Notes: generated from the sequence alone by a model not told the origin. Positions 1,566 through 16,783 are shown, counted from the first letter of the stretch. The stretch is 38,466 nucleotides of DNA from Clostridiales bacterium (GCA_003343815.1 QAKL01000101.1:1-38466), one strand, 5' to 3'. Numbers and translations: made by a program.

Positions 1566-4307
1566 ATGAATCCCATACTTGAAGATATGCTGATGCATTA
1601 CGGTACGCCGAGGCATTCGGGGAGATATCCATGGGGGTCGGGGGAGAATCCTTATCAGCACAGCGGTGATTTTTTGAGTCGTGTCGAGAGTTTGAAAAAA
1701 GAGGGTGTAAGCGAGACAAAGATTGCCGAGATGATGGGGATGTCGACGACAGAGCTGCGTGCGTATAAGTCAATCGCCAAAAACGAACGGCGTGCGGCGG
1801 AAGTAGCAAAGGCGAAAGCTCTGCGTGATGAGGGATATTCTCTGCAGGAAATCGCCGATAAGATGGGATATGCAAATGATTCGTCGATCCGCTCGCTTTT
1901 GAATGAAACCTCTGAGGCGCGAATGAATAAATCAGTCAAGACTGCAGAATTTTTGAAAAAACAGATCGATGAAAAAGGTATCGTCGATGTGGGCGCCGGG
2001 GTGGAAAAAGAACTGGGCATTTCTAAAGAAAAGCTGAATGAGGCGTTGGCGATATTGCGTGCCGATGGGTATGAGGTGTATGGCGGCGGTGTGCCGCAGG
2101 CGACAAATCCCGGAAAGCAAACTAATTTGCGTGTCGTGTGTCCGCCGGGGACGGAGCACAAAGATATTTACGATTATGAGAATATTCATCAAATCACAAA
2201 CTATACTTCACATGATAATGGCGAGACTTTTACGCCGTTTGTGTATCCGAAGAGTATGGACAGCAAAAGGTTGGCGATCCGTTATGCGGAGGATGGCGGG
2301 TTGGAAAAAGACGGTGTCTTGGAGATTCGCCGCGGAGTCGAGGATTTATCGCTTGGGGATGCGCACTATGCGCAGGTGCGTATCTTGGTCGATAATAAAA
2401 AGTATTTGAAAGGTATGGCAGTTTACAGCGATGATTTGCCGAATGGTGTGGATATTGTCTTTAACACCAATAAAACAAAAGATGTCGCAAAATTGGATGT
2501 GCTGAAGAATATCAAGGATGATCCGGATAATCCTTTTGGCTCATATATCAAGGCAAATGGGCAGAGCTATTATACTGATAAAAATGGCGAACAACAGCTT
2601 TCATTGATCAATAAGCGAGCGGAAGAGGGAGATTGGGGCGAGTGGGCGAAGAAGCTGCCTAGTCAATTCCTCTCTAAGCAGCCGAAAGCGCTGGCAGAGA
2701 AACAGTTAAAGTTAGCTGAAGCGGATAAGGTAGCAGAGTTTGAGGAGATCTGCTCGCTGACTAATCCGACGGTGAAAAAGGCGCTGCTGAAATCTTTTGC
2801 AGATGACTGCGATGCAGCAGCGGTGCATTTGCAGGCAGCGGCTTTGCCGAGACAGCGCTATCAGGTAATTATGCCGATTACTTCGATGAAAGATGACGAG
2901 GTGTATGCACCGAATTATAAAAATGGCGAAAAGGTGGCGCTGGTGAGGTTTCCGCATGGCGGTACTTTTGAGATCCCGGTGCTGACGGTAAATAATAAGC
3001 AGGCGGATGCGAAGAAGATTTTGGGTACGAATGCGCTTGACGCGGTAGGGATTAACTCGAAAGTGGCGGAGCGCTTGTCGGGTGCGGATTTTGACGGGGA
3101 TACGGTAATGGTGATTCCGTGCAATTCGTCGATGAGTAAGGTGAAAATTACTTCGACACCCCCTCTGGAGGGGTTAAAGGGATTTGACCCCAAGACGAAA
3201 TATGGTGCGGATGAGACACGAGTTGATTCCTCGGGAAAAGAGCATTATTATCGCGGTGGTAAAGAGTATCGGCAGATGAAAGCTACGCAAAAAGAGATGG
3301 GTGTGATTTCTAATCTGATTACCGATATGACTTTGAAAGGTGCGACACAGGATGAGCTGGCGAGAGCAGTACGCCACTCGATGGTGGTTATTGACGCGGA
3401 AAAGCATAAGCTGGATTACAAGCAGAGCGAGATCGATAACGATATTGCTTCATTGAAAAAGCGCTATCAAGGGCGGATCGGAGAGGACGGCAAGTACCAC
3501 GAGGGGGCATCAACGCTGATTTCGCGGGCGAAGAGCGAGGTTTCGGTGAACAAGCGGCAGGGCTCGCCGCAGATCGATCCCAAGACTGGGCGGCAGTATT
3601 GGAAAGACGCAGACAAGCTGGAATATACGGACTCTAGGGGGAGGGTGAAAAAACGCACCCAGCCCTCGACGGCGATGGCTGAGGCCGGGGACGCCCGTAC
3701 TTTGTCGTCTGGACACCCCGTCGAGGAAGTTTACGCTGATTATGCAAACAAGATGAAGTCGCTGGCGAATCAGTCGCGCAAAGAGATGTTGGCGACAGGT
3801 AAGATCGAGTACAGCGCGCAGGCGAAGAAGACTTATCGGGTGGAGTGTGATTCGCTGGATGCCAAGTTGAATGTGGCGTTAAAGAATGCGCCGCGTGAAC
3901 GGCAAGCACAGATCATGGCGAATAGTATTGTGAAAGCGAAGAAAGAAGCGAACCCTGATATGACGAAGGGCGAGGTTAAGAAGATCAGTCAGCAGGCATT
4001 GGCTCAGTCTAGGGTAAAAGTCGGCGCGCAGCGTACGCCGGTGAAGATCACGGATCGGGAATGGGAAGCGATTCAAGCTGGTGCGGTGAGCGAGAATAAA
4101 TTGACGCAGATTTTGAATAATGCAGATATGGATGAAGTGCGTAAGCGAGCGACTCCGCGGGCGACTAATTCACTTTCTGCGGGACAAATTGGTCGGATTA
4201 AGGCGCTGAAAGCGTCGGGTTACACGAATGCAGAGATCGCGGATGCTTTGGGTGTGTCGACATCGACGGTGAGTAAACATTTGACGAATGAGAGGAGTGG
4301 ACAGTGA
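1566..4307 (+). CDS. Single-chain two-barrel RNA polymerase homologue (YonO-like) with HTH modules
   Basis: ATG 1566 follows AGGAGGGG. NKKYLKGMAVYSDDLPNGVDIVFN (2397-2465) resembles the RpoB barrel (GNKGV...P..G.PVDIVLNP). VALVRFPHGG...SGADFDGDTVMVIP (2934-3119) carries the RpoC-type DFDGD metal site (3087-3101). HTH-like segments lie near nt 1700-1900 and 4183-4284. The N-terminus is HYGTPRHSGRYPWGSGENPYQ. Confidence 0.6.
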   Translation: MNPILEDMLMHYGTPRHSGRYPWGSGENPYQHSGDFLSRVESLKKEGVSETKIAEMMGMSTTELRAYKSIAKNERRAAEVAKAKALRDEGYSLQEIADKMGYANDSSIRSLLNETSEARMNKSVKTAEFLKKQIDEKGIVDVGAGVEKELGISKEKLNEALAILRADGYEVYGGGVPQATNPGKQTNLRVVCPPGTEHKDIYDYENIHQITNYTSHDNGETFTPFVYPKSMDSKRLAIRYAEDGGLEKDGVLEIRRGVEDLSLGDAHYAQVRILVDNKKYLKGMAVYSDDLPNGVDIVFNTNKTKDVAKLDVLKNIKDDPDNPFGSYIKANGQSYYTDKNGEQQLSLINKRAEEGDWGEWAKKLPSQFLSKQPKALAEKQLKLAEADKVAEFEEICSLTNPTVKKALLKSFADDCDAAAVHLQAAALPRQRYQVIMPITSMKDDEVYAPNYKNGEKVALVRFPHGGTFEIPVLTVNNKQADAKKILGTNALDAVGINSKVAERLSGADFDGDTVMVIPCNSSMSKVKITSTPPLEGLKGFDPKTKYGADETRVDSSGKEHYYRGGKEYRQMKATQKEMGVISNLITDMTLKGATQDELARAVRHSMVVIDAEKHKLDYKQSEIDNDIASLKKRYQGRIGEDGKYHEGASTLISRAKSEVSVNKRQGSPQIDPKTGRQYWKDADKLEYTDSRGRVKKRTQPSTAMAEAGDARTLSSGHPVEEVYADYANKMKSLANQSRKEMLATGKIEYSAQAKKTYRVECDSLDAKLNVALKNAPRERQAQIMANSIVKAKKEANPDMTKGEVKKISQQALAQSRVKVGAQRTPVKITDREWEAIQAGAVSENKLTQILNNADMDEVRKRATPRATNSLSAGQIGRIKALKASGYTNAEIADALGVSTSTVSKHLTNERSGQ

Positions 4308-4552
4308 TGCAGGATGCGTACAGGCTGACGACTTTCGATAATCCGTTTGACCCATTCGAGCAGTTCACTTCGTGGTTTTTGTATGATGAGGAGAAGGGTT
4401 ATCATACTTGCGCTTATTTGGGCAGGATTGCGCGGACTTCGGATGCGTTGACAGATGAAGAAAACGAGCTGGAGATCGAGCGTGCAATTGATGAGATTAT
4501 TAAGTATGATTTCAGGAATGTGTATAAGAAAGTCGCTAGAAAAGCTGTTTGA
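4304..4552 (+). CDS. Small acidic conserved phage protein, function unknown
   Basis: The ORF overlaps the RNAP stop (GTGATG). Sequence is YRLTTFDNPFDPFEQFTSWFLYDEEKGYHTCAYLGRIA. From memory this type occurs just upstream of packaging genes in Firmicutes phages. Confidence 0.45.
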   Translation: MMQDAYRLTTFDNPFDPFEQFTSWFLYDEEKGYHTCAYLGRIARTSDALTDEENELEIERAIDEIIKYDFRNVYKKVARKAV

Positions 4553-4933
4553 TTGGCGCCTATTCGGGCGAAAGATGTGGGATATGGGGGGTATGGCGAA
4601 AAACACACCCCCTGTGTTATCGCGGCGGTCTTAAAAAATTCTCCGGGGGATATTTTGGAGGAATGTGTTTTAAAAGATTGGATGCACGGATAGTAAAAAA
4701 TTAAAGCATAGGTGTGAAGTTTGAGTAAGGGTGCTTGATAGAGTTTATTAAGTCGGTACGATGTGGTATGGGGTAGCTGCGTCCTTTCATTTTTTCTCTC
4801 CTTTCGGTGATCGGCGAAAGACCGGCTTAGTAAGCTCTATCGAGTATCTTTGATGAGGAAAGGTAAAAGTGTTAAAGATGTAATAAATCATGAAACAAAA
4901 TATATTAAGCGAAAAGAAAGGAGGCTGTCGGAG

Positions 4934-5275
4934 ATGGCGCAAAGAAAAAATGCGAGTAATGTAAGTAATGCAAGTAAGCAAAAGTTTCGTCCGGCATGTA
5001 CTCCGGAGGCAAGAGAGAATCAGCTGATATCCTTGGCGGTGGATCTGGCGGAAAAGCAGCTCAGAGAAGGGACGGCATCGTCACAGGTAATCACTCACTA
5101 TCTAAAGCTGGGCTCGACGAAAGAAAAAATCGAGAAAGAGATTTTGGAGAAACAGAAAGATCTGATCGAGGCTAAAACCGAAAATTTGAAAGCGGCGCAA
5201 AGAATCGAGGAACTGTACAATAAGGCGCTGGATGCTATGAAAAGCTACAGTGGACACAGTGACGAGGATGAGTGA
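4934..5275 (+). CDS. Small basic coiled-coil phage protein, possibly small-terminase-like
   Basis: ATG 4934 lies 9 nt after AAAGGAGG (4917-4924). The segment REGTASSQVITHYLKLGSTKEKIEKE is remembered from packaging-region proteins. No clear HTH is present. The assignment is tentative. Confidence 0.3.
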   Translation: MAQRKNASNVSNASKQKFRPACTPEARENQLISLAVDLAEKQLREGTASSQVITHYLKLGSTKEKIEKEILEKQKDLIEAKTENLKAAQRIEELYNKALDAMKSYSGHSDEDE

Positions 5276-5769
5276 GCGGAGGGATATATTTGTGGCAGTA
5301 TAATTATGGGTACGGCGGTGAGCTCTATCACTATGGTGTCAAAGGTATGCGCTGGGGCGTAAGGAGATACCAAAACAAAGACGGGAGTTTAACACCAGAG
5401 GGAAAAAGTCGATATGCTATTGCGAAGCGCGCGAAAAATGGTATAATAGAAAGTAAAAAAGGATTTAGTATTCATCGAGATAAAATTGAAAAGTATATGT
5501 TAAAAGAAGGAGCTAAGCATTCACAAGATTTCTTTAATGTGGGGTACACGAAGAATGACGCAGTTAGACTTTATAAAGATATCGAACGACAGTATGATAT
5601 TAAGAAAGCAACTGGTTTTAGACAAAATGCTAATGGTTCAATTGGATACAGTATCTATATGGATTTAGGGATTATTAAGAAAAGAACATTCTGCACAGCG
5701 TGGATTATCGACGAGGATGGAGCTACTCCAAGATTAACAAGCGCATATAGGAGGGATAAGCGTGTATGA
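5272..5769 (+). CDS. HYGVKGMRWG-leader protein with DUF6883-like putative toxin C-terminus
   Basis: The start is GTG 5272, or TTG 5290 after GGAGG. The N-terminus is ELYHYGVKGMRWGVRRYQNKDGSLTPEG. The C-terminus KIEKYMLKEG..FFNVGYTKND...GYSIYMDLG...TAWIIDEDGATPRLTSAYR matches my recollection of DUF6883 (FF.LGY...Y.I.G.L...VWI...G..PR.VTAYP). Confidence 0.5.
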   Translation: MSGGIYLWQYNYGYGGELYHYGVKGMRWGVRRYQNKDGSLTPEGKSRYAIAKRAKNGIIESKKGFSIHRDKIEKYMLKEGAKHSQDFFNVGYTKNDAVRLYKDIERQYDIKKATGFRQNANGSIGYSIYMDLGIIKKRTFCTAWIIDEDGATPRLTSAYRRDKRV

Positions 5770-5947
5770 GTATTTAGACAAAGTATATGTAAAATCTAAA
5801 AACGTAAGTGGAATAATCGTGGATATTTCAGAAACTAAACCGACAATGTATATAGTGGAAAGTGATATTTATGATGCTAAAAATGATGAGTGGCCGCTAT
5901 ATGATTGCTACGCTGATGATTTAAAATTTATAGCTCATGATGAGTAG
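5762..5947 (+). CDS. Small acidic protein, candidate immunity/antitoxin (DUF4926-like size and position)
   Basis: GTG 5762 overlaps the upstream ORF by 8 nt. SD AGGAGGG (5749-5755) lies inside the upstream gene, which suggests translational coupling. The product is 61 aa. Confidence 0.4.
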   Translation: MYEYLDKVYVKSKNVSGIIVDISETKPTMYIVESDIYDAKNDEWPLYDCYADDLKFIAHDE

Positions 5948-6302: not shown

Positions 6303-6713
6303 ATGCGGTGCTATAGCGATTTAGTGAAGCTGGAAACATTTCAGGAGAGATTTGAATATTTAAGTTTGAACGGGGCGGTGGGGGTGGAGACGTTTGGATT
6401 TGAGAGATATTTAAATCAAATGTTTTACCGCTCGAGAGAATGGAAGCGGGTGCGGAGAGAGGTCATCATCCGCGATATGGGCTGTGATTTAGGAATAAGG
6501 AGTCGCGAAATCGTAGGAAAGGTGATCATCCACCATATGAATCCGGCGACGGTAGAGGATGTGACGAATAATATCGAGCGGCTGCTTGATCCGGAGTATT
6601 TAGTATGTGTGAGTATGGAGACGCATAATGCGCTGCACTATGGTGATGAAGAATTAATAAAAGCAAACGAACCTGTGGTGCGCAAGAAAAACGATACCTG
6701 CCCATGGCGGTGA
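6303..6713 (+). CDS. HNH homing-type endonuclease (packaging-associated)
   Basis: REWKRVRREVIIRDMGCDLG...IIHHMNP...ETHNALHYG is a typical phage HNH motif set. Confidence 0.8.
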   Translation: MRCYSDLVKLETFQERFEYLSLNGAVGVETFGFERYLNQMFYRSREWKRVRREVIIRDMGCDLGIRSREIVGKVIIHHMNPATVEDVTNNIERLLDPEYLVCVSMETHNALHYGDEELIKANEPVVRKKNDTCPWR

Positions 6714-7445: not shown

Positions 7446-8678
7446 ATGCTTTATTTAACAAATATTGATCTAAATCAAAATGAATTGCAAAACGCGATTG
7501 TTCAGCCGTTAGCTGTCGCGCCGAGTAATCCAAAGTTAGGGCAGATTTATACCAACAGCGTAAATTCGCGGATCATGTGGTATAACGGCAGTGAATGGCG
7601 GACAATCGGCGTCGTGGTAGAGTCGTCAGAAACAAACGGTAATATCAAAGTCGACGGTGTGGAGATGAGTGTATATGAACTGCCGATCGCTACAGCAAGT
7701 ACGGTAGGCGGTGTCAAAGTCGGCAGTGGTTTAAAGGTATTGGTAGACGGGACACTGTCCGTCGAAGTAGTAGATAATCTCACGAGCAGCGATACGGATA
7801 AGGCACTAAGCGCGGCGCAGGGTAAAGCGCTAAACGAAGCCATTAACAAGATCAATACTGAGATCGGTGAAATGGCTCAAGGCGACATGCTGAAAAGTAC
7901 CTACGATACTGACGGTGACGGAGTCATAGATAATGCGGCTAAGCTGGGCGGTCAGGCACCGAGCTACTATGCAAAAGCAGAGGACATTCCGCTAAAACTA
8001 AGCGATTTAACGAATGATGAGGGGTTTATCGATAACACGGTAAGTAATTTAGCGAATTATTACAAGAAAAGTGAAACCTACACCAAAGAAGAAGTCAATA
8101 CTTTAATCGGTAATCTGGCGACGATGGAAATCCAAGCGGTAGATAATTTACCTGCAAGCGGTAAGAGCAATGTCATCTATCTGGTGCCGAAAGATAGTGC
8201 GCAGACGAACAACGCTAAGGATGAATATTTATGGACAGGAACGGCGTTTGAAAAATTCGGCGATACGGAGATCGATTTAAGTAACTATCTCACAAAAAGC
8301 GGTAATGCAAGCGATACGACGGTGACATTTACTCAAGCAAGCACGAGAACGAATATCGCAAGCGATGAGAAAATGAGCGTACTGATGGGTAAAATCGCGA
8401 AATATTTCGCTGATTTAAAAACGGTTGCCTTTAGCGGTGATTATGCTGATTTAAGCAATAAGCCGACAATCATCAAAAGCGGAGAGTTTAGTATCGCCAA
8501 AAATCAAAATAGTAATAATGCGACATACACAGGAAGTAAAATCCTAACTGTATTTGTCATGGATACCGTAACAGGCGAGAAAGTAATTTGTGACGTCACG
8601 ATTAATGCTATGAAAGTGACGGTAAGTGTAAGTGAAAATCCGACTAACGAATTAAAGGTCGTAGTCCTCTATGTCTAA
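7446..8678 (+). CDS. Tail fibre-like protein
   Basis: The N-terminus LTNIDLNQNELQNAIVQPLAVAPSNPKLGQIYTN...WYNGSEWRTIG and the later AFSGDYADLSNKPT are both fibre-typical motifs. Confidence 0.6.
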   Translation: MLYLTNIDLNQNELQNAIVQPLAVAPSNPKLGQIYTNSVNSRIMWYNGSEWRTIGVVVESSETNGNIKVDGVEMSVYELPIATASTVGGVKVGSGLKVLVDGTLSVEVVDNLTSSDTDKALSAAQGKALNEAINKINTEIGEMAQGDMLKSTYDTDGDGVIDNAAKLGGQAPSYYAKAEDIPLKLSDLTNDEGFIDNTVSNLANYYKKSETYTKEEVNTLIGNLATMEIQAVDNLPASGKSNVIYLVPKDSAQTNNAKDEYLWTGTAFEKFGDTEIDLSNYLTKSGNASDTTVTFTQASTRTNIASDEKMSVLMGKIAKYFADLKTVAFSGDYADLSNKPTIIKSGEFSIAKNQNSNNATYTGSKILTVFVMDTVTGEKVICDVTINAMKVTVSVSENPTNELKVVVLYV

Positions 8679-8692
8679 GGCGGTGATGACCG

Positions 8693-9223: not shown

Positions 9224-9274
9224 AGGAGGGAATGAGGCGATGAATCGTAAGGCAGAAAATCGCCTCGCAGATAT

Positions 9275-10366: not shown

Positions 10367-10498
10367 ATGGATATCGCGAAGATGAAGATGTATTATCAAA
10401 AGGAGCTGTGGAAGAAAGCCATGGTCGATAATCTTTTAAAATTAGGGAAAATCACCGAGGAAGAATATAGAGAAATCGTAGGTGATAGCGAAATATGA
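10367..10498 (+). CDS. XkdX-like small phage protein
   Basis: This 43-aa ORF is not in the track: MDIAKMKMYYQKELWKKAMVDNLLKLGKITEEEYREIVGDSEI. The pattern YY...LW......V..G.IT.EEY.EI.G is characteristic of XkdX. It shares an ATGA overlap with the next gene. Confidence 0.5.
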   Translation: MDIAKMKMYYQKELWKKAMVDNLLKLGKITEEEYREIVGDSEI

Positions 10499-11619
10499 GT
10501 GAAAAATATTTAGGTGCGGTAGTATCGCCAGCGGATAATCGCGACTATCAGGCGAAAGATTATATTTCTGCCGGGGTGCGACCGGAAGAATATTATCCGA
10601 AAGTATTATGCCCAGTGCATCATCAAGAGGCGGGTGACTGCACGGCATGGGCGCTCGCAACAGCAAAATTTTATCATGAATTAAGAGAACGCAAGAGCCA
10701 GTATGAATTCGCCCCGATATTTTCGTATTTCGACCGTACGGACGATGATTACACAGGTGAGGGGCGCTATATGCGTAAAGTGCTGGATAACGCACGGAAA
10801 AACGGTATTTGCTATGCAAAAGATTTGCCCAAAGGTGTGCCGCTTTCGGCTGACTATCCTAACGAGGAGATCAGTGCGAAGTTGGCGCCGTTATTTCCCA
10901 AAGCAAAGGAAAATTGCATAGCCGGGTATGCCTATACGAGCAAAACAGACGAGATTGCCGACTGTGTCTTTCAGCATGGAGCGGCGACTATCACGATTGA
11001 TGTACGAGTGAGTTTTGACGCGTTTGTCTTAAAGAATGAGAATAACTGGGTGCTACCTATGCCGAAAGACGGCGAGCGAGTGCGCGGCTGTCATGAAGTG
11101 TGCGCTGTCGGTTTCACTAAGGATGGGATCATTATCCAAAATAGTTGGGGCACGCCGTGGGGGTATAACGGATTCGCTGTCTTACCGTGGGACTATCCTA
11201 TATTAGAGGGCTGGACTTTGGTCGACGAAGTGAAGCAGTGGGATATCGTCGAACTAATCGTAGGCGAGAATAAGGCGTTTGTTAACGATAAAGAAATAGC
11301 AATAGACGCTCCGGCAATGATTAAAAACGGTAGAACATTCGTACCATTAAGATTTATCGGAGAGGCATTAGGCGCGAAAGTATTCTGGGAAAACGGGACA
11401 AGAACTATCGCAATCAAAGACAAGGATAACGTCATCACCATGCAGATAGGCGAGCGAATCGGGTATGTGAATAATTACGCGCATGTGCTGGACGAAGCTC
11501 CGTTTATTAAAAATGACCGCACTTTTGTGCCGTTAAGGTTTATCGGCGAGGCGCTGGGTGCTGATGTGGAATGGATCGCAAGTGAAAGAAAGATCGTGGT
11601 GAGGAGAGTGCGCAAATGA
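10495..11619 (+). CDS. Papain-family (C1) cysteine peptidase with 2x copper-amine-oxidase-N-like wall-binding repeats; candidate endolysin
   Basis: QEAGDCTAWA supplies the Q/C, GCHEVCAVGF the H, and IIQNSWGTPWGYNGF the NSWG motif. The C-terminus has two repeats, NGRTFVPLRFIGEALGAKV and NDRTFVPLRFIGEALGADV. No signal peptide is present. It follows the XkdX-like gene. Confidence 0.65.
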   Translation: MSEKYLGAVVSPADNRDYQAKDYISAGVRPEEYYPKVLCPVHHQEAGDCTAWALATAKFYHELRERKSQYEFAPIFSYFDRTDDDYTGEGRYMRKVLDNARKNGICYAKDLPKGVPLSADYPNEEISAKLAPLFPKAKENCIAGYAYTSKTDEIADCVFQHGAATITIDVRVSFDAFVLKNENNWVLPMPKDGERVRGCHEVCAVGFTKDGIIIQNSWGTPWGYNGFAVLPWDYPILEGWTLVDEVKQWDIVELIVGENKAFVNDKEIAIDAPAMIKNGRTFVPLRFIGEALGAKVFWENGTRTIAIKDKDNVITMQIGERIGYVNNYAHVLDEAPFIKNDRTFVPLRFIGEALGADVEWIASERKIVVRRVRK

Positions 11620-11972
11620 TCGAAAATGACAGTATATTAAATAGTATAAAGAAGCTTTGCAATATCGCCTATGATGATACACATTTCGATCGCGACATAA
11701 TCTTTCATATCAATGCGGCGCTGGGGGTACTGGCGCAAATCGGCGTCGTTGCAAAAGAGGGGATGATCATAAGCGATCAAAAATCAAAATGGACTGATCT
11801 CACAGAGGATAAGGTCATTTTGGGATTAGCGGTCGAGTATATCCAGCTCAAATGTGTGATCGTCTTTGACCCGCCGAGTGTGAGCGCGGTATTGGACGCT
11901 TATAAGGAGCGGATAAAGGAGCTAGAGTGGAGACTGCAAGAGCAGGCAGAGGAAAGTAACACGATAAATTAA
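11616..11972 (+). CDS. gp6-like head-tail connector protein (putative)
   Basis: ILNSIKKLCNIAYDDTHFDRDIIFHINAALGVLAQIGV...VFDPPSVSAVLDAYKERIKELEWRL resembles the connector/adaptor family seen in Firmicutes phages (from memory). Confidence 0.4.
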   Translation: MIENDSILNSIKKLCNIAYDDTHFDRDIIFHINAALGVLAQIGVVAKEGMIISDQKSKWTDLTEDKVILGLAVEYIQLKCVIVFDPPSVSAVLDAYKERIKELEWRLQEQAEESNTIN

Positions 11973-12886
11973 TTTAGATATTGAAGTGCTAAAGCAATTA
12001 ATGATAGACAGCGATTAAAAAAATAATCATAATATCGAATATCGTTAATATTTATTTTATCGGTTTCATGATGTCTGATACGGAAACTATTTCCAATGAA
12101 AGTTAGCGCTTTAAATTCTTCTGTGAATAGAATTTTATAGTCATCCTGTCCGCAAGACATATTTTCGATTATTTTATTTACGGATTGTTTTTTATCTAAA
12201 TCAGTGTAATATGTCTTTAATCGCTCTAATACATCCCATATTTTCTCAACTGCGTCTTTGTGGGACTGAAGATTTGGTTGCATGTGTTTTTCAATAGCTA
12301 TGTTGAATAATTCTTGTAACTCAGGTTCCGGGATTTGAGCACTCAACGAGATTATATCAGGGCTAAGCACTTCGGATAAAGCTAACTGTTCTATGAGACC
12401 GCTGTCATTGAGATTAAAGGGTATATTGTATTTTTGAAATAATGTATTAATTGCTGAACGAAAATCGAGTTTTTCTTTTGAAGATAACTCTTCATATTGG
12501 AGCTCAATTATGTCGAATAAAAATGGTGTAAAACATGCAGATAAGATCTCATAGTCGAGTGACGAATACATTTTAAATGATTTTAGATCTACAGCTGGAA
12601 CCTGAAGATATTCATTTAAGCGTTCTATAGCACATTCCAAAGCATCTGTGTATACTGTCCAATCGCTATAACGATCTGGCTGATAGCATATGGGTTCTCT
12701 AAAGTGAGATATTATTTTGCAAATGCGGTTTTTGACACTCGAATCAACAGAATAGCTAATATTGTCAGTGGGCTGACCTTGTCCATAGCTTATTAAATCT
12801 TTATAGCGTTCGGTAAAAAGGTTATCCGGGAAAAGCGATTGTATAGCGTTTACACATTTTACAGCGTTTTCAGAATTCTTGTTCAT
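11969..12886 (-). CDS. AT-rich opposite-strand hypothetical protein, candidate prophage defence/Abi-like moron
   Basis: This 305-aa ORF has SD AGGAGG upstream of its ATG at 12886. Its stop codon overlaps the stop of the convergent + gene. It is mostly helical. The C-terminus IGNSFRIRHHETD...YFFNRC is vaguely AbiJ/HEPN-like, but there is no canonical Rx4-6H. Confidence 0.4.
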   Translation of the reverse strand: MNKNSENAVKCVNAIQSLFPDNLFTERYKDLISYGQGQPTDNISYSVDSSVKNRICKIISHFREPICYQPDRYSDWTVYTDALECAIERLNEYLQVPAVDLKSFKMYSSLDYEILSACFTPFLFDIIELQYEELSSKEKLDFRSAINTLFQKYNIPFNLNDSGLIEQLALSEVLSPDIISLSAQIPEPELQELFNIAIEKHMQPNLQSHKDAVEKIWDVLERLKTYYTDLDKKQSVNKIIENMSCGQDDYKILFTEEFKALTFIGNSFRIRHHETDKININDIRYYDYFFNRCLSLIALALQYLN

Positions 12887-12981: not shown

Positions 12982-13347
12982 GTGGATGAATTGTATCACT
13001 ACGGCGTCAAGGGTATGAAATGGGGTATCAGGCGCTATCAAAACTCGGACGGGAGCTATACGAAAGCCGGAAAGAAACGACGGCGGGAGGAACATCCCGA
13101 CTATACAAATGCTCATACCAAGAAACATGTCCGCGAGATGAGTAATGAGGAGTTAAAGAGCCGCAATAATCGATTACAGATGGAAAAAACATATGAGGGA
13201 CTAACTAAAGATCAGCATATCATCGGGCTGGGGATGAAATATGTAGGTACGGCTACAGCGATAACAGGCTCGGCATTAGCTCTGTATAGTAATGCAGATC
13301 GTATCATATCCATAGGGAAAAAGGCCGCGAAGCGAACGCTAAGATAA
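12982..13347 (+). CDS. HYGVKGMKWG-leader small protein with basic middle and C-terminal hydrophobic helix
   Basis: GTG 12982 lies 9 nt after AAGGAGG. The sequence is MDELYHYGVKGMKWGIRRYQNSDGSYTKAGKKRR...MSNEELKSRNNRLQMEKTY...GLGMKYVGTATAITGSALAL. Confidence 0.55.
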   Translation: MDELYHYGVKGMKWGIRRYQNSDGSYTKAGKKRRREEHPDYTNAHTKKHVREMSNEELKSRNNRLQMEKTYEGLTKDQHIIGLGMKYVGTATAITGSALALYSNADRIISIGKKAAKRTLR

Positions 13348-13359: not shown

Positions 13360-15102
13360 ATGGCACTGTCGAATACTGCTGTACCGAAATATTACGGCAT
13401 GTTTCGAGATGCCGTAATGCGTGGAGAAATTGCGATCAATCGAGAAATCGAGATGGAGATGAATCGAATCGATAATTTGATCCGTGACAAAGACATTTAT
13501 TGTGACAATACGGCGGTGGAGGGGTTTATCCGCTACTGCGAAAACGAGATGACACTGACTGACGGGGCGGATTTAACGCTGCTGGATACTTTTAAACTGT
13601 GGGCGGAGGAGATATTCGGCTGGTATTATTTCGTGGAAAAGCAGGTGTGGGAGCCGTACGAGGACGGCGGCGGCCGCTATGTGCGCAAGTGGCAGAAAAA
13701 GCGTCTGGTCAATAAGCAGTATCTCATCATCGCCAGAGGGGCGGCGAAGTCGATGTATGGCGCGTGCTTACAAAGCTATTTTTTGAATGTCGATACGACA
13801 ACGACTCATCAAATAACTACGGCGCCGACGATGAAGCAGGCGGAGGAGGTATTGGCTCCGATAAGAACGGCGATCACCAGAGCAAGAGGTCCGCTCTTTC
13901 AGTTTTTAACTGAAGGGAGCTTGCAGAATACGACCGGGAGCAAAGCAAAACGCATGAAGCTCTCACCGACCAAAAAAGGAATTGAGAATTTCCTGACAGG
14001 TTCGCTTTTAGAAATCCGTCCGATGAGTATCCATAAGCTGCAGGGACTGCAAATCAAGGTGGCGACGGTGGATGAATGGCTCTCGGGGGATATCCGAGAG
14101 GATGTCATCGGGGCTATTGAGCAGGGTGCGAGCAAAGTGGATGATTATTTAATCGTGGCAATTTCCTCAGAGGGTACGGTGCGTAACGGCGCAGGGGATA
14201 CAATCAAAATGGAATTGGCGGATATCCTCAAAGGCGAGTATGTCAATCCGCATGTGTCTATCTGGTGGTATAAGCTGGATAATATCGAGGAGGTCAACAA
14301 CCCGGCGATGTGGGTCAAGGCTCAGCCTAATCTGGGTAAGACAGTGAGTTATGAAACCTATCAGCTGGAAGTGGAAAGAGCGGAGAAAGCACCGGCAGCG
14401 CGAAATGATATTTTGGCTAAAAGATTCGGTATCCCGATGGAGGGATATACTTACTACTTTACTTATGAGGAGACGATACCGCATAAGCGAAAATCGTATC
14501 ACGGTATGGCGTGTGCGCTGGGCGGAGACTTTTCCCGAGGGGATGATTTCTGTGCATTGACCTTTTTATTTCCCTTACGAGACGGAGCGTTTGGCGTGAA
14601 AACGAGGAACTATATTTCGGCGCTCACTTATCAGAAACTCGCTCCGGCGATGCGGATGAAATATGACGAATTTATCGAAGAGGGGACGCTAATCGTAATG
14701 GAGGGGACAGTCCTCGATATGGATGACATCTATGACGAACTGGCTGGATATATCGATGAGATGGAATATGATGTGCGGTGCTTTGGCTATGATCCATACA
14801 ATGCAAATAAGTTTGTCGCTCAATTTGAGGTTGATAACGGACCGTTTGGGATTGTAAAAGTACCGCAGGGTGCGAAGACGGAATCAGTGCCGTTAGGAGA
14901 ACTAAAAAGTTTATCCGAAGAAAGAATGCTGTTATTTGACGAGGAAATGATGAGCTTTACGATGGGGAACTGTATTACTTTAGAGGATACGAATGGCAAC
15001 CGCAAACTGTTGAAAAAGCGGCATGATGCAAAGATAGACGCGGTGGCAGCGATGATGGATGCGTATATCGCGTATAAGGAAAACAAAGATGTGTTTGAAT
15101 AA
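13360..15102 (+). CDS. terL: Terminase large subunit (Terminase_1 type)
   Basis: The product is 580 aa. LIIARGAAKS is Walker-A-like and VATVDEW is Walker-B-like. The C-terminal nuclease region is GGDFSRGDDF...QGAKTESVPLGELK...KKRHDAKIDAVAAMMDA. Confidence 0.85.
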   Translation: MALSNTAVPKYYGMFRDAVMRGEIAINREIEMEMNRIDNLIRDKDIYCDNTAVEGFIRYCENEMTLTDGADLTLLDTFKLWAEEIFGWYYFVEKQVWEPYEDGGGRYVRKWQKKRLVNKQYLIIARGAAKSMYGACLQSYFLNVDTTTTHQITTAPTMKQAEEVLAPIRTAITRARGPLFQFLTEGSLQNTTGSKAKRMKLSPTKKGIENFLTGSLLEIRPMSIHKLQGLQIKVATVDEWLSGDIREDVIGAIEQGASKVDDYLIVAISSEGTVRNGAGDTIKMELADILKGEYVNPHVSIWWYKLDNIEEVNNPAMWVKAQPNLGKTVSYETYQLEVERAEKAPAARNDILAKRFGIPMEGYTYYFTYEETIPHKRKSYHGMACALGGDFSRGDDFCALTFLFPLRDGAFGVKTRNYISALTYQKLAPAMRMKYDEFIEEGTLIVMEGTVLDMDDIYDELAGYIDEMEYDVRCFGYDPYNANKFVAQFEVDNGPFGIVKVPQGAKTESVPLGELKSLSEERMLLFDEEMMSFTMGNCITLEDTNGNRKLLKKRHDAKIDAVAAMMDAYIAYKENKDVFE

Positions 15103-15142
15103 AAATAACCGAAAGACGAGAAGTCGATCGGTTAAAAGAAAA

Positions 15143-16306
15143 TCAGTCATCACCACTAGGCAATGCTTTTAAATAAAGGGCATCGCCGCTCATCAAGATG
15201 TCTACAGGCTCATTATAGATAGCGTTAATGTGGTCAATTTTTTCAGCGAATATTTGAGATTTAGTGTCTTGGCAGCTGGCAAGCGATTTGGCTGCTTTAG
15301 AAAAGTGGGCTTTGTCGGTGCTGCGTAAAGCATAGGCACCGTCAGATAAATGCTCATGAATAGGGGTTTTACGCAAAAGAGGAGTTTTTTCAAAAACTAA
15401 GGAGGCGGCGGTTCCGGCTTTAGCGACGGTCTTAATGGCGTGATGCTCCAAGGCTCGCGCAGAAAGCGCATCTAAGTGTGCGCAGGATTTCTGGTAGTAA
15501 GCGTCATATTTAGTGGATACGTCGGATATTTGCTTAGAAACAGAGGAGAGGTAACCTGAACTGCTGTAGTTTTCGGTAAAGATGACTTCGGCATAGGAAG
15601 CGAGGGCGTAAATGGAAACACAAAGGCGGTAAATCTGAAGTGGTTTGCGCAAGGAATTGGCGGCTTTGTCGATATCGCCTTTCGTAACAATGCGCTCTTT
15701 ATCGGTAAAAACTTTGTCGATTTGCTTTTGATAAAATTCTATATTCTGATAAGCTTCATTTTTAGCGTCTTGGAGCTTGACAAAAACACCGGTTTTATAA
15801 AGCTCGTTTTGGCTACTGTATTTGTAGTTGCTCAAAGCATCGTGTAAATACAGAATAGTGCCGCGTATTTTGGATTGCTTATCTGTTTCGAGGAAATATA
15901 AAAGCTGCTCTTGCATAGCGGTGATTTGGTTAAGTTGGGAAGTAACGGCGGATATAGCAGCAGAGGCGCAAAGTGTAGCCGGATTAACCGCCGAAATTTT
16001 AACCGGCTGAAAGGAAGCCTTGCCGACAAGCTTGCCGTTTTTGAAAATCATATCACGGTATCCTTGTCCGTTCAAAGATTTGGTGGATAGGCGAATTGAT
16101 TTGCCGACATCGTCTACGGCGCGGTAAAGTAATTTGTCTTTTTTGAAAAAGTTTGGTATTTCCGAAACGCCCATGCCTAAGGATGATAACTGAGCGAAAG
16201 GAATTTTCTCATATTTAGAAAGCTCGACGGTAGAATCAAGCGGAATAAGCTCAAGCTCCAAAGGAGCGAGAAAGTCATAATTTTGGGCAGCTGAAGTAGT
16301 ATCCAT
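15143..16306 (-). CDS. Opposite-strand hypothetical protein inserted between terL and portal
   Basis: This 387-aa ORF has SD AGGAG (16316-16320, minus) 9 nt from its ATG at 16306. The first ~120 aa look beta-rich, followed by a long helical region. No TM segment and no family motif were recognised. Confidence 0.5.
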   Translation of the reverse strand: MDTTSAAQNYDFLAPLELELIPLDSTVELSKYEKIPFAQLSSLGMGVSEIPNFFKKDKLLYRAVDDVGKSIRLSTKSLNGQGYRDMIFKNGKLVGKASFQPVKISAVNPATLCASAAISAVTSQLNQITAMQEQLLYFLETDKQSKIRGTILYLHDALSNYKYSSQNELYKTGVFVKLQDAKNEAYQNIEFYQKQIDKVFTDKERIVTKGDIDKAANSLRKPLQIYRLCVSIYALASYAEVIFTENYSSSGYLSSVSKQISDVSTKYDAYYQKSCAHLDALSARALEHHAIKTVAKAGTAASLVFEKTPLLRKTPIHEHLSDGAYALRSTDKAHFSKAAKSLASCQDTKSQIFAEKIDHINAIYNEPVDILMSGDALYLKALPSGDD

Positions 16307-16340
16307 GAGTGTCGTCTCCTTGATAATATAGATTAAATAA

Positions 16341-16369: not shown

Positions 16370-16370
16370 T

Positions 16371-16393
16371 CCGAAAATTGGAAAAATTTTCGG
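16371..16393 (+). promoter_or_regulatory. Perfect 9-bp hairpin in the leader of 16406..16783
   Basis: CCGAAAATT-ggaaa-AATTTTCGG. The 3' arm runs into the G9 tract that acts as the SD. Confidence 0.5.
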
Positions 16394-16400
16394 GGGGGGG
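16392..16400 (+). repeat. G9 homopolymer tract, 5 nt upstream of ATG 16406
   Basis: The sequence cGGGGGGGGGtaaaaATG is read directly from the window. Confidence 0.9.
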
Positions 16401-16405
16401 TAAAA

Positions 16406-16783
16406 ATGTATTATTACAATGATAAAAATAATGAATTATATCACTACGGTGTCAAAGGGATGCGTTGGGGCGTAAGAAAACATAGGGACTCTGCTTCCTC
16501 ACAAACACGCGCTCAAAGAAAAAGCGAAAAACAGGCGTATAAACAAAAATTAAAAGCTGATGTCCGTATGAATAAAAAGGGCATGATCGCGAAAACACAG
16601 GATTTTGACGTAACGACGGGACGAGCTGTCAAAGGCAGTGAGCGCTACTATAATACAATGACCGGTGAAGAATACAGCAAGGCGTATATTAAAAAGGTGA
16701 ATAAAAAAACAGCAGTATCTCAATTAAGCAAAGTCGGTATTGCAACCGGGGCATATGTAACCGCACGCTATTTAGCACATTAG
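16406..16783 (+). CDS. HYGVKGMRWG-leader small protein
   Basis: MYYYNDKNNELYHYGVKGMRWGVRKH is followed by a Lys-rich middle and a C-terminal hydrophobic segment, VGIATGAYVTARYL. Confidence 0.55.
   Translation: MYYYNDKNNELYHYGVKGMRWGVRKHRDSASSQTRAQRKSEKQAYKQKLKADVRMNKKGMIAKTQDFDVTTGRAVKGSERYYNTMTGEEYSKAYIKKVNKKTAVSQLSKVGIATGAYVTARYLAH

What the first reader, a model, noticed from the sequence alone, without database searches (positions are those of the whole stretch)
1596..16483. Shared N-terminal HYG-V-K-G-M-[RK]-W-G leader on otherwise unrelated phage ORFs
Three ORFs begin with near-identical peptides within their first 35 aa: ELYHYGVKGMRWGVRRYQ (5320-5373), ELYHYGVKGMKWGIRRYQ (12982-13041) and ELYHYGVKGMRWGVRKH (16433-16483). 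The RNAP homologue starts with a degenerate version, LMHYGTPRHSGRYPWGSGENPYQ. Downstream of the leader the four proteins are unrelated: a toxin-like domain, two basic proteins with hydrophobic tails, and a polymerase. A common N-terminal tag on diverse cargo suggests a targeting, processing or packaging signal, for example capsid or virion targeting with possible removal by the prohead protease. T4 capsid-targeting sequences and the MuF-domain polymorphic toxins of temperate Firmicutes phages are precedents. The function of the leader is my inference only.
Basis: partly seen in the sequence, partly recalled or inferred. Interest (0 to 1): 0.75.

Follow-up and report, generated by a model that had tools for sequence, protein, structure and literature searches.

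The report
Shared virion-loading tag on phage proteins
Three unrelated proteins and, in diverged form, the RNA polymerase of this prophage start with the same short peptide (Pfam DUF7211). It is the hallmark of one large family of Gram-positive phages, and it most likely serves as an address label that loads enzymes and toxins into the virus particle for injection into the next host.

Summary
ORFs 5272-5769, 12982-13347 and 16406-16783 carry [DN][DGN]ELxH[YH]G[VI]KGM[KR]WG[VI]R[RK] within their first 30 residues. All three pass Pfam DUF7211, a family with no assigned function and no literature. The RNAP homologue (1560-4307) carries a conserved diverged copy, LxHYG[TVI]xRxSGRYPWGSG.

The window is a temperate siphophage of the 1706/Oengus/ReqiPepy6 supercluster. 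Outside the window the leader occurs in about 36,000 protein clusters. In every context examined it lies in this phage lineage, and it fills the connector-TerL-portal block with 3-8 tagged genes per genome.

Cargo is mostly unknown. Where recognisable it is GNAT acetyltransferases, 2H phosphoesterases, ADP-ribosyltransferase, glutamine deamidase, Ntox50 or DUF6883. The window's DUF6883 cargo, together with a homologue of its small downstream gene, also follows a fragment resembling the end of a MuF domain in another contig.

The authors' GenBank record of phage 1706 labels both its leader protein (ORF7) and its RNAP homologue (ORF75) "structural protein".

Best reading (about 0.55): a docking peptide that loads ejected effectors and a virion RNAP into the head, playing the role of MuF domains or the T4 capsid-targeting sequence. 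The binding partner and any cleavage are untested. I rate it a new variant of a known kind.

The parts
1560..4307 (+). YonO/RdRP-like single-subunit RNA polymerase homologue (915 aa) with the DFDGD catalytic motif and helix-turn-helix domains
   Evidence: phrog_4291 E = 0 over the full length. Pfam RdRP is weak (E 0.0041) and the C-terminal HTH is strong. GADFDGDT is visible in the translation. 250 phage records hold an orthologue. It is the signature gene of the supercluster.
1581..1658 (+). Diverged leader at the RNAP N-terminus: EDMLMHYGTPRHSGRYPWGSGENPYQ
   Evidence: Conserved in RNAP orthologues. hhalign to the leader profile gives 94.5% over 11 columns. The combined pattern has no true background hit in 627,479 residues. 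It does not reach the Pfam DUF7211 threshold.
5272..5769 (+). Leader plus DUF6883 cargo protein (165 aa), toxin-like
   Evidence: Pfam DUF7211 E 6.1e-10 and DUF6883 E 5.4e-06 (27.1 bits, cut-off 27). Close homologues P0079-P0085.
5320..5421 (+). Canonical leader, copy 1, with its extension: ELYHYGVKGMRWGVRRYQNKDGSLTPEGKSRY
5467..5751 (+). DUF6883 cargo domain
   Evidence: Pfam residues 66-160. About 40-45% identical to the C-terminal half of P0086, whose N-terminal part resembles the end of a MuF domain.
5762..5947 (+). Small gene overlapping the stop codon of the toxin-like gene; candidate immunity protein (61 aa)
   Evidence: Homologous to the gene downstream of the P0086 toxin (L133:757-993): BLASTP E 4e-06, 31% identity over the full length. 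No Pfam or PHROG hit.
11616..11972 (+). Head-tail connector gene (equivalent of 1706 orf6); upstream boundary of the tagged-gene block
   Evidence: Pfam Phage_connect_2 E 1.7e-29. A homologue is present in 95 of the fetched loci.
12982..13347 (+). Leader protein directly upstream of TerL (121 aa, basic). Member of the conserved 1706-ORF7 / FP_oengus-gp69 family.
   Evidence: DUF7211 E 8.6e-10. phrog_32444 E 6.9e-31. BLASTP to FP_oengus gp69 9e-18 and to 1706 ORF7 2e-06.
12985..13041 (+). Canonical leader, copy 2: DELYHYGVKGMKWGIRRYQ, two residues after the GTG start
13135..13209 (+). Second conserved motif: EMSNEELKSRNNRLQMEKTYEGLTK
   Evidence: A regex and alignments find it in 50 of 331 leader proteins, 48 of them in the large cargo cluster.
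13360..15102 (+). Large terminase
   Evidence: Pfam TerL_nuclease E 2.1e-34.
16406..16783 (+). Leader protein directly upstream of the portal gene (125 aa, basic, hydrophobic C-terminal tail)
   Evidence: DUF7211 E 2.1e-11. FP_oengus gp69 occupies the same position.
16433..16483 (+). Canonical leader, copy 3: ELYHYGVKGMRWGVRKH
16802..18046 (+). Portal protein with an acidic C-terminus; candidate docking partner (inference)
   Evidence: Pfam Phage_portal E 2e-16. Sequence. One metagenomic portal has a leader fused in frame to its C-terminus (L092).
17931..19763 (+). Fusion of the prohead protease (S78) and the major capsid protein; alternative docking partner or processing enzyme (inference)
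   Evidence: Pfam Peptidase_S78 plus Phage_capsid. A conserved His-containing motif ends the protease domain.

Best explanation
**What it is.** The leader is Pfam DUF7211. Its core is [DN][DGN]-E-L-x-H-[YH]-G-[VI]-K-G-M-[KR]-W-G-[VI]-R-[RK], often followed in Firmicutes phages by YQNKDGSLTxAGKKRY. It behaves as a short docking peptide and is specific to the 1706/Oengus/ReqiPepy6 siphophage supercluster.

**How it most likely works.**
- It marks proteins for incorporation into the assembling head, probably at or near the portal.
- The tagged proteins travel in the virion and are ejected into the next host together with the DNA.

**What each genome tags.**
- A conserved small basic protein with a hydrophobic tail. 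In the window this is 12982-13347. Its relative 1706 ORF7 is labelled a structural protein.
- A variable set of accessory cargo. In the window these are 16406-16783 and the DUF6883 toxin-like protein 5272-5769, which has a candidate immunity gene at 5762-5947.
- The YonO-like RNA polymerase, through a diverged copy of the tag. On this reading it is a virion RNAP that starts early transcription.

**Comparison.** Functionally the tag plays the role of the MuF domain in MuF polymorphic toxins, or of the T4 capsid-targeting sequence.

**Shown versus inferred.**
- Shown: the motif, its modularity, its lineage restriction, its synteny, the cargo types, and the sharing of one cargo cassette with a MuF-like fragment.
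- From database annotation: virion association in phage 1706.
- Inferred: that the peptide itself mediates loading, its partner, ejection of the cargo, and any proteolytic processing.
For: **1. One short peptide on diverse cargo.**
- 146 of 147 representative tagged proteins hit DUF7211, while their cargo parts fall into 105 clusters.
- An exhaustive HMMER search finds 36,189 cluster representatives at E<=1e-3 and 21,822 at E<=1e-10.

**2. Position in the head-assembly module.** Of 341 tagged ORFs:
- 121 lie between TerL and the portal gene;
- 78 lie directly upstream of TerL;
- 50 lie downstream of TerL in loci where the portal gene is off the locus;
- most of the remainder appear to lie between the connector gene and TerL.

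Every annotated gene between TerL and portal is tagged in Rima (gp9-11), Kenosha (gp15-18), ReqiPepy6 (gp15-21) and Tribby (gp9). In FP_oengus the only same-strand gene there, gp69, is tagged; gp68 lies on the opposite strand and is not.

**3. Cargo types.** Recognisable cargo matches known injected effectors and polymorphic toxins:
- 2'-5' RNA ligase / LigT 2H phosphoesterase
- GNAT acetyltransferases
- ADPrib_exo_Tox
- Gln_amidase
- Ntox50
- DUF6883

Ntox50 and ADP-ribosyltransferases are also cargo of MuF toxins (PMC5576092).

**4. Shared cargo cassette.** P0086 combines a fragment resembling the C-terminal end of a MuF domain (PF04233, E 0.0023, with the HCRC motif) with a homologue of the window's DUF6883 cargo. 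Its downstream gene is homologous to window 5762-5947 (E 4e-06).

**5. Virion association.** The authors' GenBank record of phage 1706 (EU081845) labels ORF7 (two leader copies) and ORF75 (the RNAP homologue) "structural protein". The ReqiPepy6 and ReqiPoco6 annotators repeat this label for their orthologues.

**6. Co-occurrence with the RNAP.**
- 237 phage records hold the leader and 250 hold the RNAP.
- Genus counts are identical for Arthrobacter (95), Gordonia (55), Streptomyces (54), Curtobacterium (7), Rhodococcus (4), Microbacterium (4) and Faecalibacterium (2).
- The 'Siphovirus contig89' records listed are 23.5 kb partial contigs. This probably accounts for most of the RNAP-only 'Siphovirus' records. 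Five Lactococcus records are also undetected by the short tblastn query.
- All 7 genome-contig hits carry lineage TerL and connector genes.

**7. Other supporting points.**
- The RNAP gene lies immediately upstream of the late and structural genes, as expected for a virion component.
- AlphaFold2 of the leader alone gives mostly coil (pLDDT 73), as expected for a peptide that folds on a partner.
- The tagged window proteins are strongly basic, like T4 internal proteins (the T4 comparison is my own knowledge).
- One portal protein has a leader fused to its C-terminus (L092).
- No MuF-domain protein was found among the window ORFs scanned.
Against: - No experiment links the peptide itself to packaging.
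- The 1706 evidence is an annotation. I could not read the paper. The same record also labels two untagged early-region proteins (orf62, orf71) as structural, so either other routes into the virion exist or the preparation carried contaminants.
- Co-occurrence with the RNAP cannot be separated from shared ancestry.
- About 17% of leaders are internal, and some proteins hold 2-5 copies. That differs from strictly N-terminal signals such as the T4 capsid-targeting sequence.
- The MuF match in P0086 is below the Pfam threshold and comes from a 1-kb contig.
- More than 90% of cargo has no recognisable domain.
- The portal fusion is a single metagenomic case.
Confidence: 0.55

Rival explanations
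1. Protease-recognition propeptide. The leader is mainly a docking or cleavage site for the S78 prohead protease, which in this lineage is fused to the capsid protein. Tagged proteins and multi-leader polyproteins would be processed at or near each leader during head maturation. This could coexist with targeting, as it does for the T4 capsid-targeting sequence.
For: - Multi-copy proteins look like polyproteins, with a leader about every 220 residues.
- A conserved Phi-x-(Phi)-H-[AS]-[DE] motif ends the protease domain of the protease-capsid fusion. In the window this reads LELYHADG, which resembles ELYHYG.
- A K/L-H-[SD] element recurs 10-25 residues upstream of internal leaders.
Against: - The resemblance covers only 3-4 residues.
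- The leader HMM gives no positive score on any of 48 protease-capsid proteins.
- A C-terminal His is not enriched in single-module proteins: 1.6% against 2.1% background.
- No N-terminal sequencing data are available.
Confidence: 0.15
2. Homotypic assembly module. Leaders bind one another, for example by forming a beta-sheet ring. All tagged proteins of one phage would then co-assemble into a single internal or ejection complex seeded by the conserved ORF7-like member, rather than each docking on the portal or capsid.
For: - Each genome has several tagged proteins, always including one conserved ORF7-like member with a hydrophobic tail.
- Natural fusions join 2-5 modules in one chain.
- The YQ extension co-varies between the RNAP N-terminus and the canonical leaders of the same genome.
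Against: - The co-variation is confounded by phylogeny (Firmicutes versus Actinobacteria) and has exceptions (L023, L116).
- The leader alone is predicted to be largely unstructured.
Confidence: 0.15
3. Not a virion signal. The leader is an interaction peptide for an intracellular partner, for example the phage RNAP, as transcription factors or regulators. Alternatively it targets the host membrane or cell wall during late infection.
For: - Near-perfect co-occurrence with the RNAP.
- One multi-leader protein carries a sigma-70 region 4 domain.
- Hydrophobic tails are common, and some actinophage records annotate these proteins as "membrane protein".
Against: - The RNAP itself carries the motif.
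- The tagged genes sit inside the head-assembly block, not among early or regulatory genes.
- Toxin and enzyme cargo that acts on cytoplasmic targets fits delivery into a new cell.
- 1706 ORF7 and ORF75 are annotated as structural.
Confidence: 0.1
4. The motif is a chance or low-complexity match, or a DNA-level repeat such as a recombination linker or recent duplication, with no function as a peptide.
For: None beyond the shortness of the motif.
Against: - 3 matches against 0.01 expected.
- Pfam scores above threshold.
- 36,189 clusters across two bacterial phyla.
- Nucleotide differences between copies are mostly synonymous.
- Invariant H, G, G, W and G across 451 unique instances. In one search these positions are fixed by the selecting pattern. 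The independent alignment shows G, G, W and G invariant and H at 90% or more.
Confidence: 0.01

Closest known systems
Pfam PF23847 (DUF7211)
   Same: It is the same motif. The three window ORFs score above the gathering threshold, as do 146 of 147 representative tagged proteins.
   Different: The family has no assigned function and no paper mentions it. The 25-residue model misses the diverged RNAP version and the YQNKDGSLT extension.
MuF polymorphic toxins of temperate phages (Jamet et al. 2017, PMC5576092); SPP1 gp7
   Same: - A constant N-terminal module is fused to variable C-terminal toxins or enzymes (ADP-ribosyltransferase, Ntox50).
- The genes lie next to the portal and terminase genes.
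- An immunity-like gene lies downstream.
- The proposed route is head packaging followed by injection.
- The window's DUF6883 cassette also follows a MuF-like fragment.
   Different: - The carrier here is an 18-35 residue peptide, not a MuF domain of roughly 110 residues or more.
- There is no sequence similarity, and no MuF domain in the window.
- Several tagged genes occur per genome, not one.
- The tag also occurs in virulent actinophages and on an RNA polymerase.
T4 capsid-targeting sequence of the internal proteins IPI-III and Alt (my own knowledge of the T4 literature; see also PMC9026906 and PMC7697877, listed)
   Same: A short N-terminal peptide shared by unrelated small basic proteins and an ADP-ribosyltransferase, which directs them into the prohead for later injection.
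   Different: - The T4 signal binds the scaffolding core and is removed by gp21 at L/I-x-E.
- No such site is conserved here and there is no sequence similarity.
- Here the tag can be internal or repeated.
- The scaffold here is part of a protease-capsid fusion protein.
Virion RNA polymerases: N4 gp50 and the YonO-like gp66 of crAss-like phages (N4: PMC13434306, listed; crAss gp66: my own knowledge)
   Same: A phage-encoded RNAP (here a YonO/RdRP-like two-barrel enzyme with DxDGD) that appears to be a virion component, encoded next to the late genes.
   Different: - Here it is a 900-aa protein in a siphophage of Gram-positive hosts.
- It shares its N-terminal tag with other cargo.
- Ejection and early transcription have not been shown.
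Encapsulin cargo-loading peptides (my own knowledge)
   Same: A short conserved peptide on diverse cargo enzymes that docks on the interior of an HK97-fold shell.
   Different: Encapsulin peptides are usually C-terminal and bind the shell protomer. The partner here is unknown and the particle is a DNA-filled phage head.

Membership tests
Pfam DUF7211 (PF23847) | HMM score above the gathering threshold of 27 bits | tested here: met
   38.8, 38.3 and 43.4 bits for ORFs 5272-5769, 12982-13347 and 16406-16783.
Pfam DUF7211 (PF23847), RNAP N-terminus | HMM score above the gathering threshold | tested here: not met
   - No DUF7211 hit for 1560-4307 even at E<=1.
- Only the first half of the motif aligns (hhalign 94.5% over 11 columns).
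- Treated as a diverged relative on the basis of pattern specificity.
MuF polymorphic toxins | N-terminal MuF domain (PF04233, PF06152, or MuF3/4) | tested here: not met
   No MuF hit in the tagged proteins or in any other window ORF scanned.
MuF polymorphic toxins | Variable C-terminal toxin domain shared with other polymorphic-toxin families | tested here: met
   Ntox50, ADPrib_exo_Tox and Gln_amidase occur on tagged proteins. DUF6883 is shared with the MuF-like fragment P0086.
MuF polymorphic toxins | Gene adjacent to the portal or terminase genes | tested here: met
   Met for the family as a whole. The window's toxin-like member 5272-5769 is an exception: it lies 7.6 kb upstream of TerL.
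MuF polymorphic toxins | Cognate immunity gene immediately downstream | tested here: inconclusive
   A conserved small downstream gene exists (5762-5947, similar to L133:757-993, E 4e-06). Its immunity function is untested.
T4-type capsid-targeting sequence | N-terminal peptide removed by the prohead protease at a conserved site | not testable with these tools
   - No N-terminal mapping data are available.
- No conserved L/I-x-E follows the leader.
- Internal copies exist.
T4-type capsid-targeting sequence | Sufficient to direct foreign proteins into proheads | not testable with these tools
   Requires fusion experiments.
Virion (ejected) RNA polymerases | The RNAP is present in purified virions | tested here: inconclusive
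   Only the authors' annotation "structural protein" for 1706 ORF75, echoed for ReqiPepy6 gp106 and for ReqiPoco6. The primary paper is not held.
Virion (ejected) RNA polymerases | Two-barrel catalytic core with the DxDGD motif | tested here: met
   GADFDGDT is in the translation. phrog_4291 E = 0. Pfam RdRP E 0.0041. HHpred evidence is reported in 10.1101/842583.
1706/Oengus/ReqiPepy6 supercluster (proposed family Sisseviridae) | Shared TerL, portal, protease-capsid fusion, Gp37-like tail protein and RNAP | tested here: met

The most novel reading that the evidence does not exclude
DUF7211 is a transferable head-loading and ejection tag used across a whole family of Gram-positive siphophages (more than 36,000 protein clusters). 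It docks on the portal or on the interior of the HK97-fold shell. It delivers a virion RNA polymerase together with a rapidly exchanging arsenal of anti-host or anti-defence enzymes and toxins. On this reading these siphophages run an N4- or crAss-like strategy of bringing their own polymerase, and the tag could be used to package foreign proteins into their capsids.
Probability: 0.4. Interest if true: 0.8.

Novelty: new variant of a known kind. Interest (0 to 1): 0.62.

Why it matters
**Biology.** If the reading is right, an 18-residue peptide identifies, from sequence alone, the set of proteins that these phages inject.
- The lineage is abundant in human and pig gut viromes, in dairy lactococci and in soil actinobacteria.
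- The injected set would include a YonO-like RNA polymerase, 2H phosphoesterases, acetyltransferases, ADP-ribosyltransferases and deamidases.
- That gives a direct way to catalogue thousands of candidate host-takeover and anti-defence effectors.
- It would extend the virion-RNAP strategy to Gram-positive siphophages.
- It would show that MuF-type toxin delivery has an independent peptide-based counterpart.

**Application.** A short tag that tolerates many different cargos is attractive for loading reporters or enzymes into capsids.

**Testability.** The hypothesis can be tested at once on cultured phages such as 1706, FP_oengus and more than 200 SEA-PHAGES isolates.

Tried and rejected
- **Protein search with the 41-aa leader alone** returned only fragments of 72 aa or less, which are useless for architectures. 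It was replaced by a scan of viral contigs plus my own HMM and by the exhaustive search.
- **Search with the cargo part of 5272-5769** found only 8 close relatives and no further carrier domains.
- **AlphaFold2 of 5272-5769** gave pLDDT 49, so I ran no fold search. The fold of DUF6883 stays unknown.
- **AlphaFold2 of the leader alone** showed no stable fold.
- **PDB sequence searches** with the leader profile, 5272-5769 and the RNAP found nothing.
- **Literature:**
  - No paper mentions DUF7211 or the peptide.
  - The 1706 paper (Garneau 2008) and the ReqiPepy6 paper (Summer 2011) are not held.
  - No Arthrobacter phage mass-spectrometry paper was found.
- **Protease-site idea:** the leader HMM does not match the protease-capsid proteins, and a C-terminal His is not enriched. 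I kept it only as a weak rival.
- **Small-terminase idea for 12982-13347:** rejected. Its relative 1706 ORF7 is annotated as structural, the same tag sits on enzymes, and tagged genes also fill the TerL-portal gap.
- **DNA repeat or gene conversion:** rejected because the differences between copies are mostly synonymous.
- **megablast of the window against phage records:** no match.

Full report
**1.

Translations of ORFs 5272-5769, 12982-13347 and 16406-16783 begin with ...GGELYHYGVKGMRWGVRRYQ, VDELYHYGVKGMKWGIRRYQ and ...NNELYHYGVKGMRWGVRKH at the reported coordinates.
- A back-translated pattern for HYGVKGM finds exactly these three sites, against 0.01 expected from shuffles.
- All three pass Pfam PF23847 (DUF7211), a 25-residue family of unknown function, at 38-43 bits against a cut-off of 27.
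- The three DNA copies differ at 20-30% of positions, with synonymous codon changes outnumbering non-synonymous ones in each pair (8 vs 2, 6 vs 2, 6 vs 4). What is conserved is the peptide, not a DNA repeat.
- Only four window proteins contain Phi-x-HYG, all within their first 18 residues. The fourth is the RNAP homologue.

**2. The RNAP version is a real, diverged copy**

The 915-aa protein at 1560-4307 matches phrog_4291 end to end (E = 0). It carries GADFDGDT and helix-turn-helix domains. It does not reach the DUF7211 threshold.

Its N-terminus, (E/D)DxLxHYG[TVI]xRxSGRYPWGSG, is nevertheless conserved in orthologues from Faecalibacterium, Lactococcus, Gordonia and Streptomyces phages and from metagenomes. 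Variants such as HYGVKRRSGRYPWGSG bridge it to HYGVKGMKWG.
- hhalign gives 94.5% probability, but only over the 11 columns ddxLxHYGvK.
- The combined pattern Phi-x-H-[YFWH]-G-[VTI]-x(3-12)-WG has no true background hit in 627,479 residues of other ORFs. All 12 raw hits were leader proteins. It is present at the N-terminus of 10 of 16 long RNAP ORFs (over 850 aa, not de-duplicated).
- The YQ that follows WG in Firmicutes-type leaders is also present in the RNAPs of those genomes, and is absent from both in actinophages. This is suggestive, but phylogeny confounds it.

**3. What the window is**

The window is a temperate siphophage.

| Coordinates | Feature |
|---|---|
| 952-1563 | Exonuclease |
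| 1560-4307 | RNAP homologue |
| 6303-6713 | HNH endonuclease |
| 7446-10090 | Fibre-like genes |
| 10495-11619 | Lysin-like gene |
| 11616-11972 | Connector (Phage_connect_2) |
| 13360-15102 | Large terminase (TerL) |
| 16802-18046 | Portal |
| 17931-19763 | S78 protease fused to the capsid protein |
| 23036-28831 | Tape measure |
| downstream of the tape measure | Dit and a Gp37-like tail protein |
| 32691-33878 | Integrase |
| from 34202 | Host genes |

This is the gene order of the supercluster described by Koert et al. (bioRxiv 10.1101/842583). That supercluster joins Streptomyces BI, Arthrobacter AM/AU/AW, Gordonia DJ, Rhodococcus CC, Microbacterium EL, the Lactococcus 1706 group and Faecalibacterium FP_oengus. 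Its signature gene is this RNAP homologue. Billaud et al. call the clade Oengus-like and mention the proposed family name Sisseviridae (PMC9723715).

**4. The leader outside the window**

*Cultured phages.* tblastn with a Firmicutes-type leader hits 197 phage records, and an actinophage-type leader hits 237 (920 places, about 4 per genome). The RNAP hits 250.
- Genus counts are identical for Arthrobacter (95), Gordonia (55), Streptomyces (54), Curtobacterium (7), Rhodococcus (4), Microbacterium (4) and Faecalibacterium (2).
- The listed RNAP-positive records without a leader are 23.5-kb partial contigs.

*Metagenomes.*
- With my own HMM I found 351 tagged ORFs in 130 loci.
- 116 loci carry the lineage's TerL.
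- All 7 hits in bacterial genome bins carry the lineage's TerL and connector, and the RNAP where the flank reaches far enough. This is true whatever the taxonomic label of the bin.
- The exhaustive HMMER search of 1.84 billion cluster representatives gives 36,189 proteins at E<=1e-3 and 21,822 at E<=1e-10.

The consensus from 451 unique instances is [DN][DGN]-E-L(93%)-x-H-[YHWF]-G-[VI]-K(90%)-G-M(94%)-[KR]-W-G-[VI]-R(91%)-[RK]. An independent alignment shows G, G, W and G invariant and H at 90% or more.

**5. Anatomy of tagged proteins**

About 80% of copies have the leader within 40 residues of the earliest possible start. The median distance from the leader to the stop codon is 164 residues.

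About 17% of copies are internal. The top exhaustive hits are proteins of up to 1,569 aa with 2-5 leaders about 220 residues apart, that is, chains of tag-cargo modules.

In actinophages a Gly/Ser-rich linker follows the leader. In Firmicutes phages YQNKDGSLTxAGKKRY and a Lys/Arg-rich stretch follow it.

Cargo parts fall into 105 clusters, 104 of them small. The one large cluster (167 members) is defined by a second motif, LSNxEL..R..RMxLExxY, plus a hydrophobic tail. It includes:
- window 12982-13347;
- FP_oengus gp69 (cargo E 9e-18);
- the first module of 1706 ORF7 (E 2e-06).

The cargo parts of the three window proteins have no pairwise similarity. All three proteins are strongly basic.

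**6. Genomic position**

Of 341 tagged ORFs, 121 lie between TerL and the portal gene and 78 lie directly upstream of TerL. Another 50 lie downstream of TerL in loci where the portal gene is off the locus. Most of the rest appear to lie between the connector gene and TerL.

Every annotated gene in the TerL-portal gap is tagged in these phages:
- Rima gp9-11;
- Kenosha gp15-18;
- ReqiPepy6 gp15-21;
- Tribby gp9.

In FP_oengus the only same-strand gene in that gap, gp69, is tagged; gp68 lies on the opposite strand.

In the window:
- 12982-13347 sits directly upstream of TerL.
- 16406-16783 sits directly upstream of the portal gene.
- 5272-5769 is atypical. It forms a cassette between a conserved small gene and the HNH gene.

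**7. Cargo identity**

Pfam scans covered 147 representatives and 69 multi-leader proteins. Precomputed domains were also available for 120 further homologues. Apart from DUF7211 they gave:

| Domain | Count |
|---|---|
| 2'-5' RNA ligase / LigT 2H phosphoesterase | 6 |
| GNAT acetyltransferases | at least 10 |
| Gln_amidase (papain-fold toxin 1) | 5 |
| Ntox50 | 2 |
| DUF6883 | window protein plus 3 relatives |
| ADPrib_exo_Tox | 1 |
| CW_7 | 1 |
| Sigma-70 region 4 | 1 |
| Portal | 1 |

Counts are summed over the three sets, which may share a few proteins.

Most cargo has no recognisable domain. Ntox50 and ADP-ribosyltransferases are also typical cargo of MuF polymorphic toxins, for which head packaging and injection have been proposed (PMC5576092).

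**8. The same cargo follows a MuF-like fragment**

P0086 (232 aa, on a 1-kb Logan contig) has two parts.
- Its N-terminal part resembles the end of a MuF domain (PF04233 positions 76-111 of 112, E 0.0023, with the HCRC motif).
- Its C-terminal part is homologous to the window's DUF6883 cargo (one search reports 44% identity over 84% of the query).

The gene downstream of it is homologous to window 5762-5947, which overlaps the stop codon of 5272-5769 (E 4e-06).

So one toxin-plus-small-gene cassette occurs behind either a MuF-like fragment or the DUF7211 leader. This is the strongest sequence-based argument that the two carriers do the same job. The MuF match is sub-threshold, so the argument needs more examples.

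**9. Virion association**

The authors' GenBank record of phage 1706 (EU081845) labels orf6, orf7, orf62, orf71 and orf75 "structural protein".
- ORF7 carries two leader copies.
- ORF75 is the RNAP homologue.
- The ReqiPepy6 and ReqiPoco6 annotators repeat the label for their orthologues.
- My recollection is that the 1706 structural proteins were identified by mass spectrometry of virions. I could not read the paper.
- ORF62 and ORF71 have no leader. The tag is therefore not the only route into the preparation, or contaminants were present.

**10. Structure**

AlphaFold2 of the leader with 50 homologues gives pLDDT 73, mostly coil with one hairpin bridge and a short helix. This fits a linear docking motif rather than a domain. 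AlphaFold2 of 5272-5769 was unusable (pLDDT 49). No PDB entry contains a relative of the leader, of 5272-5769 or of the RNAP.

**11. Mechanism and rivals**

The best-supported account is a docking peptide that loads cargo into the head for ejection. The cargo comprises a conserved basic, hydrophobic-tailed protein, variable effectors, and the RNAP.

The partner may be the portal, whose C-terminus is acidic. One metagenomic portal has a leader fused in frame to its C-terminus (L092). The interior of the protease-scaffold-capsid protein is the alternative.

Rivals:
- A protease-recognition propeptide. The evidence is weak: a conserved His motif at the end of the protease domain and upstream of internal leaders, but no HMM similarity and no C-terminal His enrichment.
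- A homotypic assembly module.
- An intracellular interaction peptide.
- Chance or a DNA-level repeat, which is excluded.

**12. Novelty**

The motif is already catalogued as DUF7211, but no function is assigned and no literature exists. Its likely role resembles MuF carriers, the T4 capsid-targeting sequence, and virion RNAPs. It fails the defining sequence features of each of these, so it is not a member of any.

I rate it a new variant of a known kind, with interest 0.62. It is a large, cleanly defined and experimentally tractable system. Its function is so far inferred only.

Noticed in passing
window 11969-12886 (- strand): An opposite-strand gene inserted between the connector gene and the leader gene. 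It matches Pfam AbiJ_NTD4 (E 1.6e-06, below cut-off) and the PADLOC candidate defence protein PDC-S32 (E 1.3e-65). It is probably a prophage-borne defence moron.
   Followed up: partly
window 15143-16306 (- strand); L001 38952-40004: An opposite-strand 387-aa gene between TerL and the leader and portal genes has no Pfam, PHROG or PADLOC hit. It is homologous (E 1e-10) to FP_oengus gp68, which sits at the same position. This is a conserved moron of unknown function inside the packaging module.
   Followed up: partly
window 17931-19763; alignment of 48 homologues: The protease-capsid fusion has a conserved motif at the end of the protease domain, TG-x-x-[LI]-E-(L-x)-H-[ASG]-[DE], followed by an acidic low-complexity linker. 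In the window it reads LELYHADG, which resembles the ELYHYG of the leader. It may be an autocleavage or docking site.
   Followed up: partly
L092:5124-6575 (IMG/VR contig IMGVR_UViG_..., metagenome): A portal protein with a canonical leader (DLKHYGVKGMKWGVHK) fused in frame to its C-terminus. It may be a natural fusion hinting at proximity of the leader to the portal, or a sequencing artefact.
   Followed up: partly
P0199-P0347, e.g. P0203 (1,569 aa, 5 leaders): Polyprotein-like chains of 2-5 leader-cargo modules about 220 residues apart. A K/L-H-[SD] element often lies 10-25 residues before each internal leader.
   Followed up: partly
window 13135-13209; 50 of 331 tagged proteins in related loci: A second conserved motif, LSNxEL..R..RMxLExxY, followed by a hydrophobic tail. 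It defines the member that seems present in most genomes (1706 ORF7, FP_oengus gp69, Tribby gp7, Kenosha gp13). Its function is unknown.
   Followed up: partly
L132 7441-8052 (Arthrobacter phage Tribby gp11, the gene after the portal gene): The N-terminus EDFLEHYSSQYYD keeps only the first half of the leader (D-F-L-x-H-Y). In some metagenomic relatives the gene after the portal gene carries a full leader (L036, L114, L102).
   Followed up: no
window 10495-11619: A papain-family Peptidase_C1 domain (weak hit) fused to two Cu_amine_oxidN1 domains (E 7.9e-55), at the position where relatives encode the endolysin. This is an unusual lysin architecture.
   Followed up: no
window 32691-33878 and 35374-37380: The prophage integrase has the Tn916-type N-terminal DNA-binding domain (PF02920). 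Flanking host DNA encodes an NMT1-like binding protein and an EF-G/Tet(M)-like GTPase of 668 aa. I did not determine whether the latter is a ribosomal-protection gene.
   Followed up: no
L138, L139 (genome contigs): Contigs carrying this phage lineage are binned in MAGs labelled Bacteroidaceae and Thermoplasmata archaeon. These are probably binning errors rather than true hosts.
   Followed up: no
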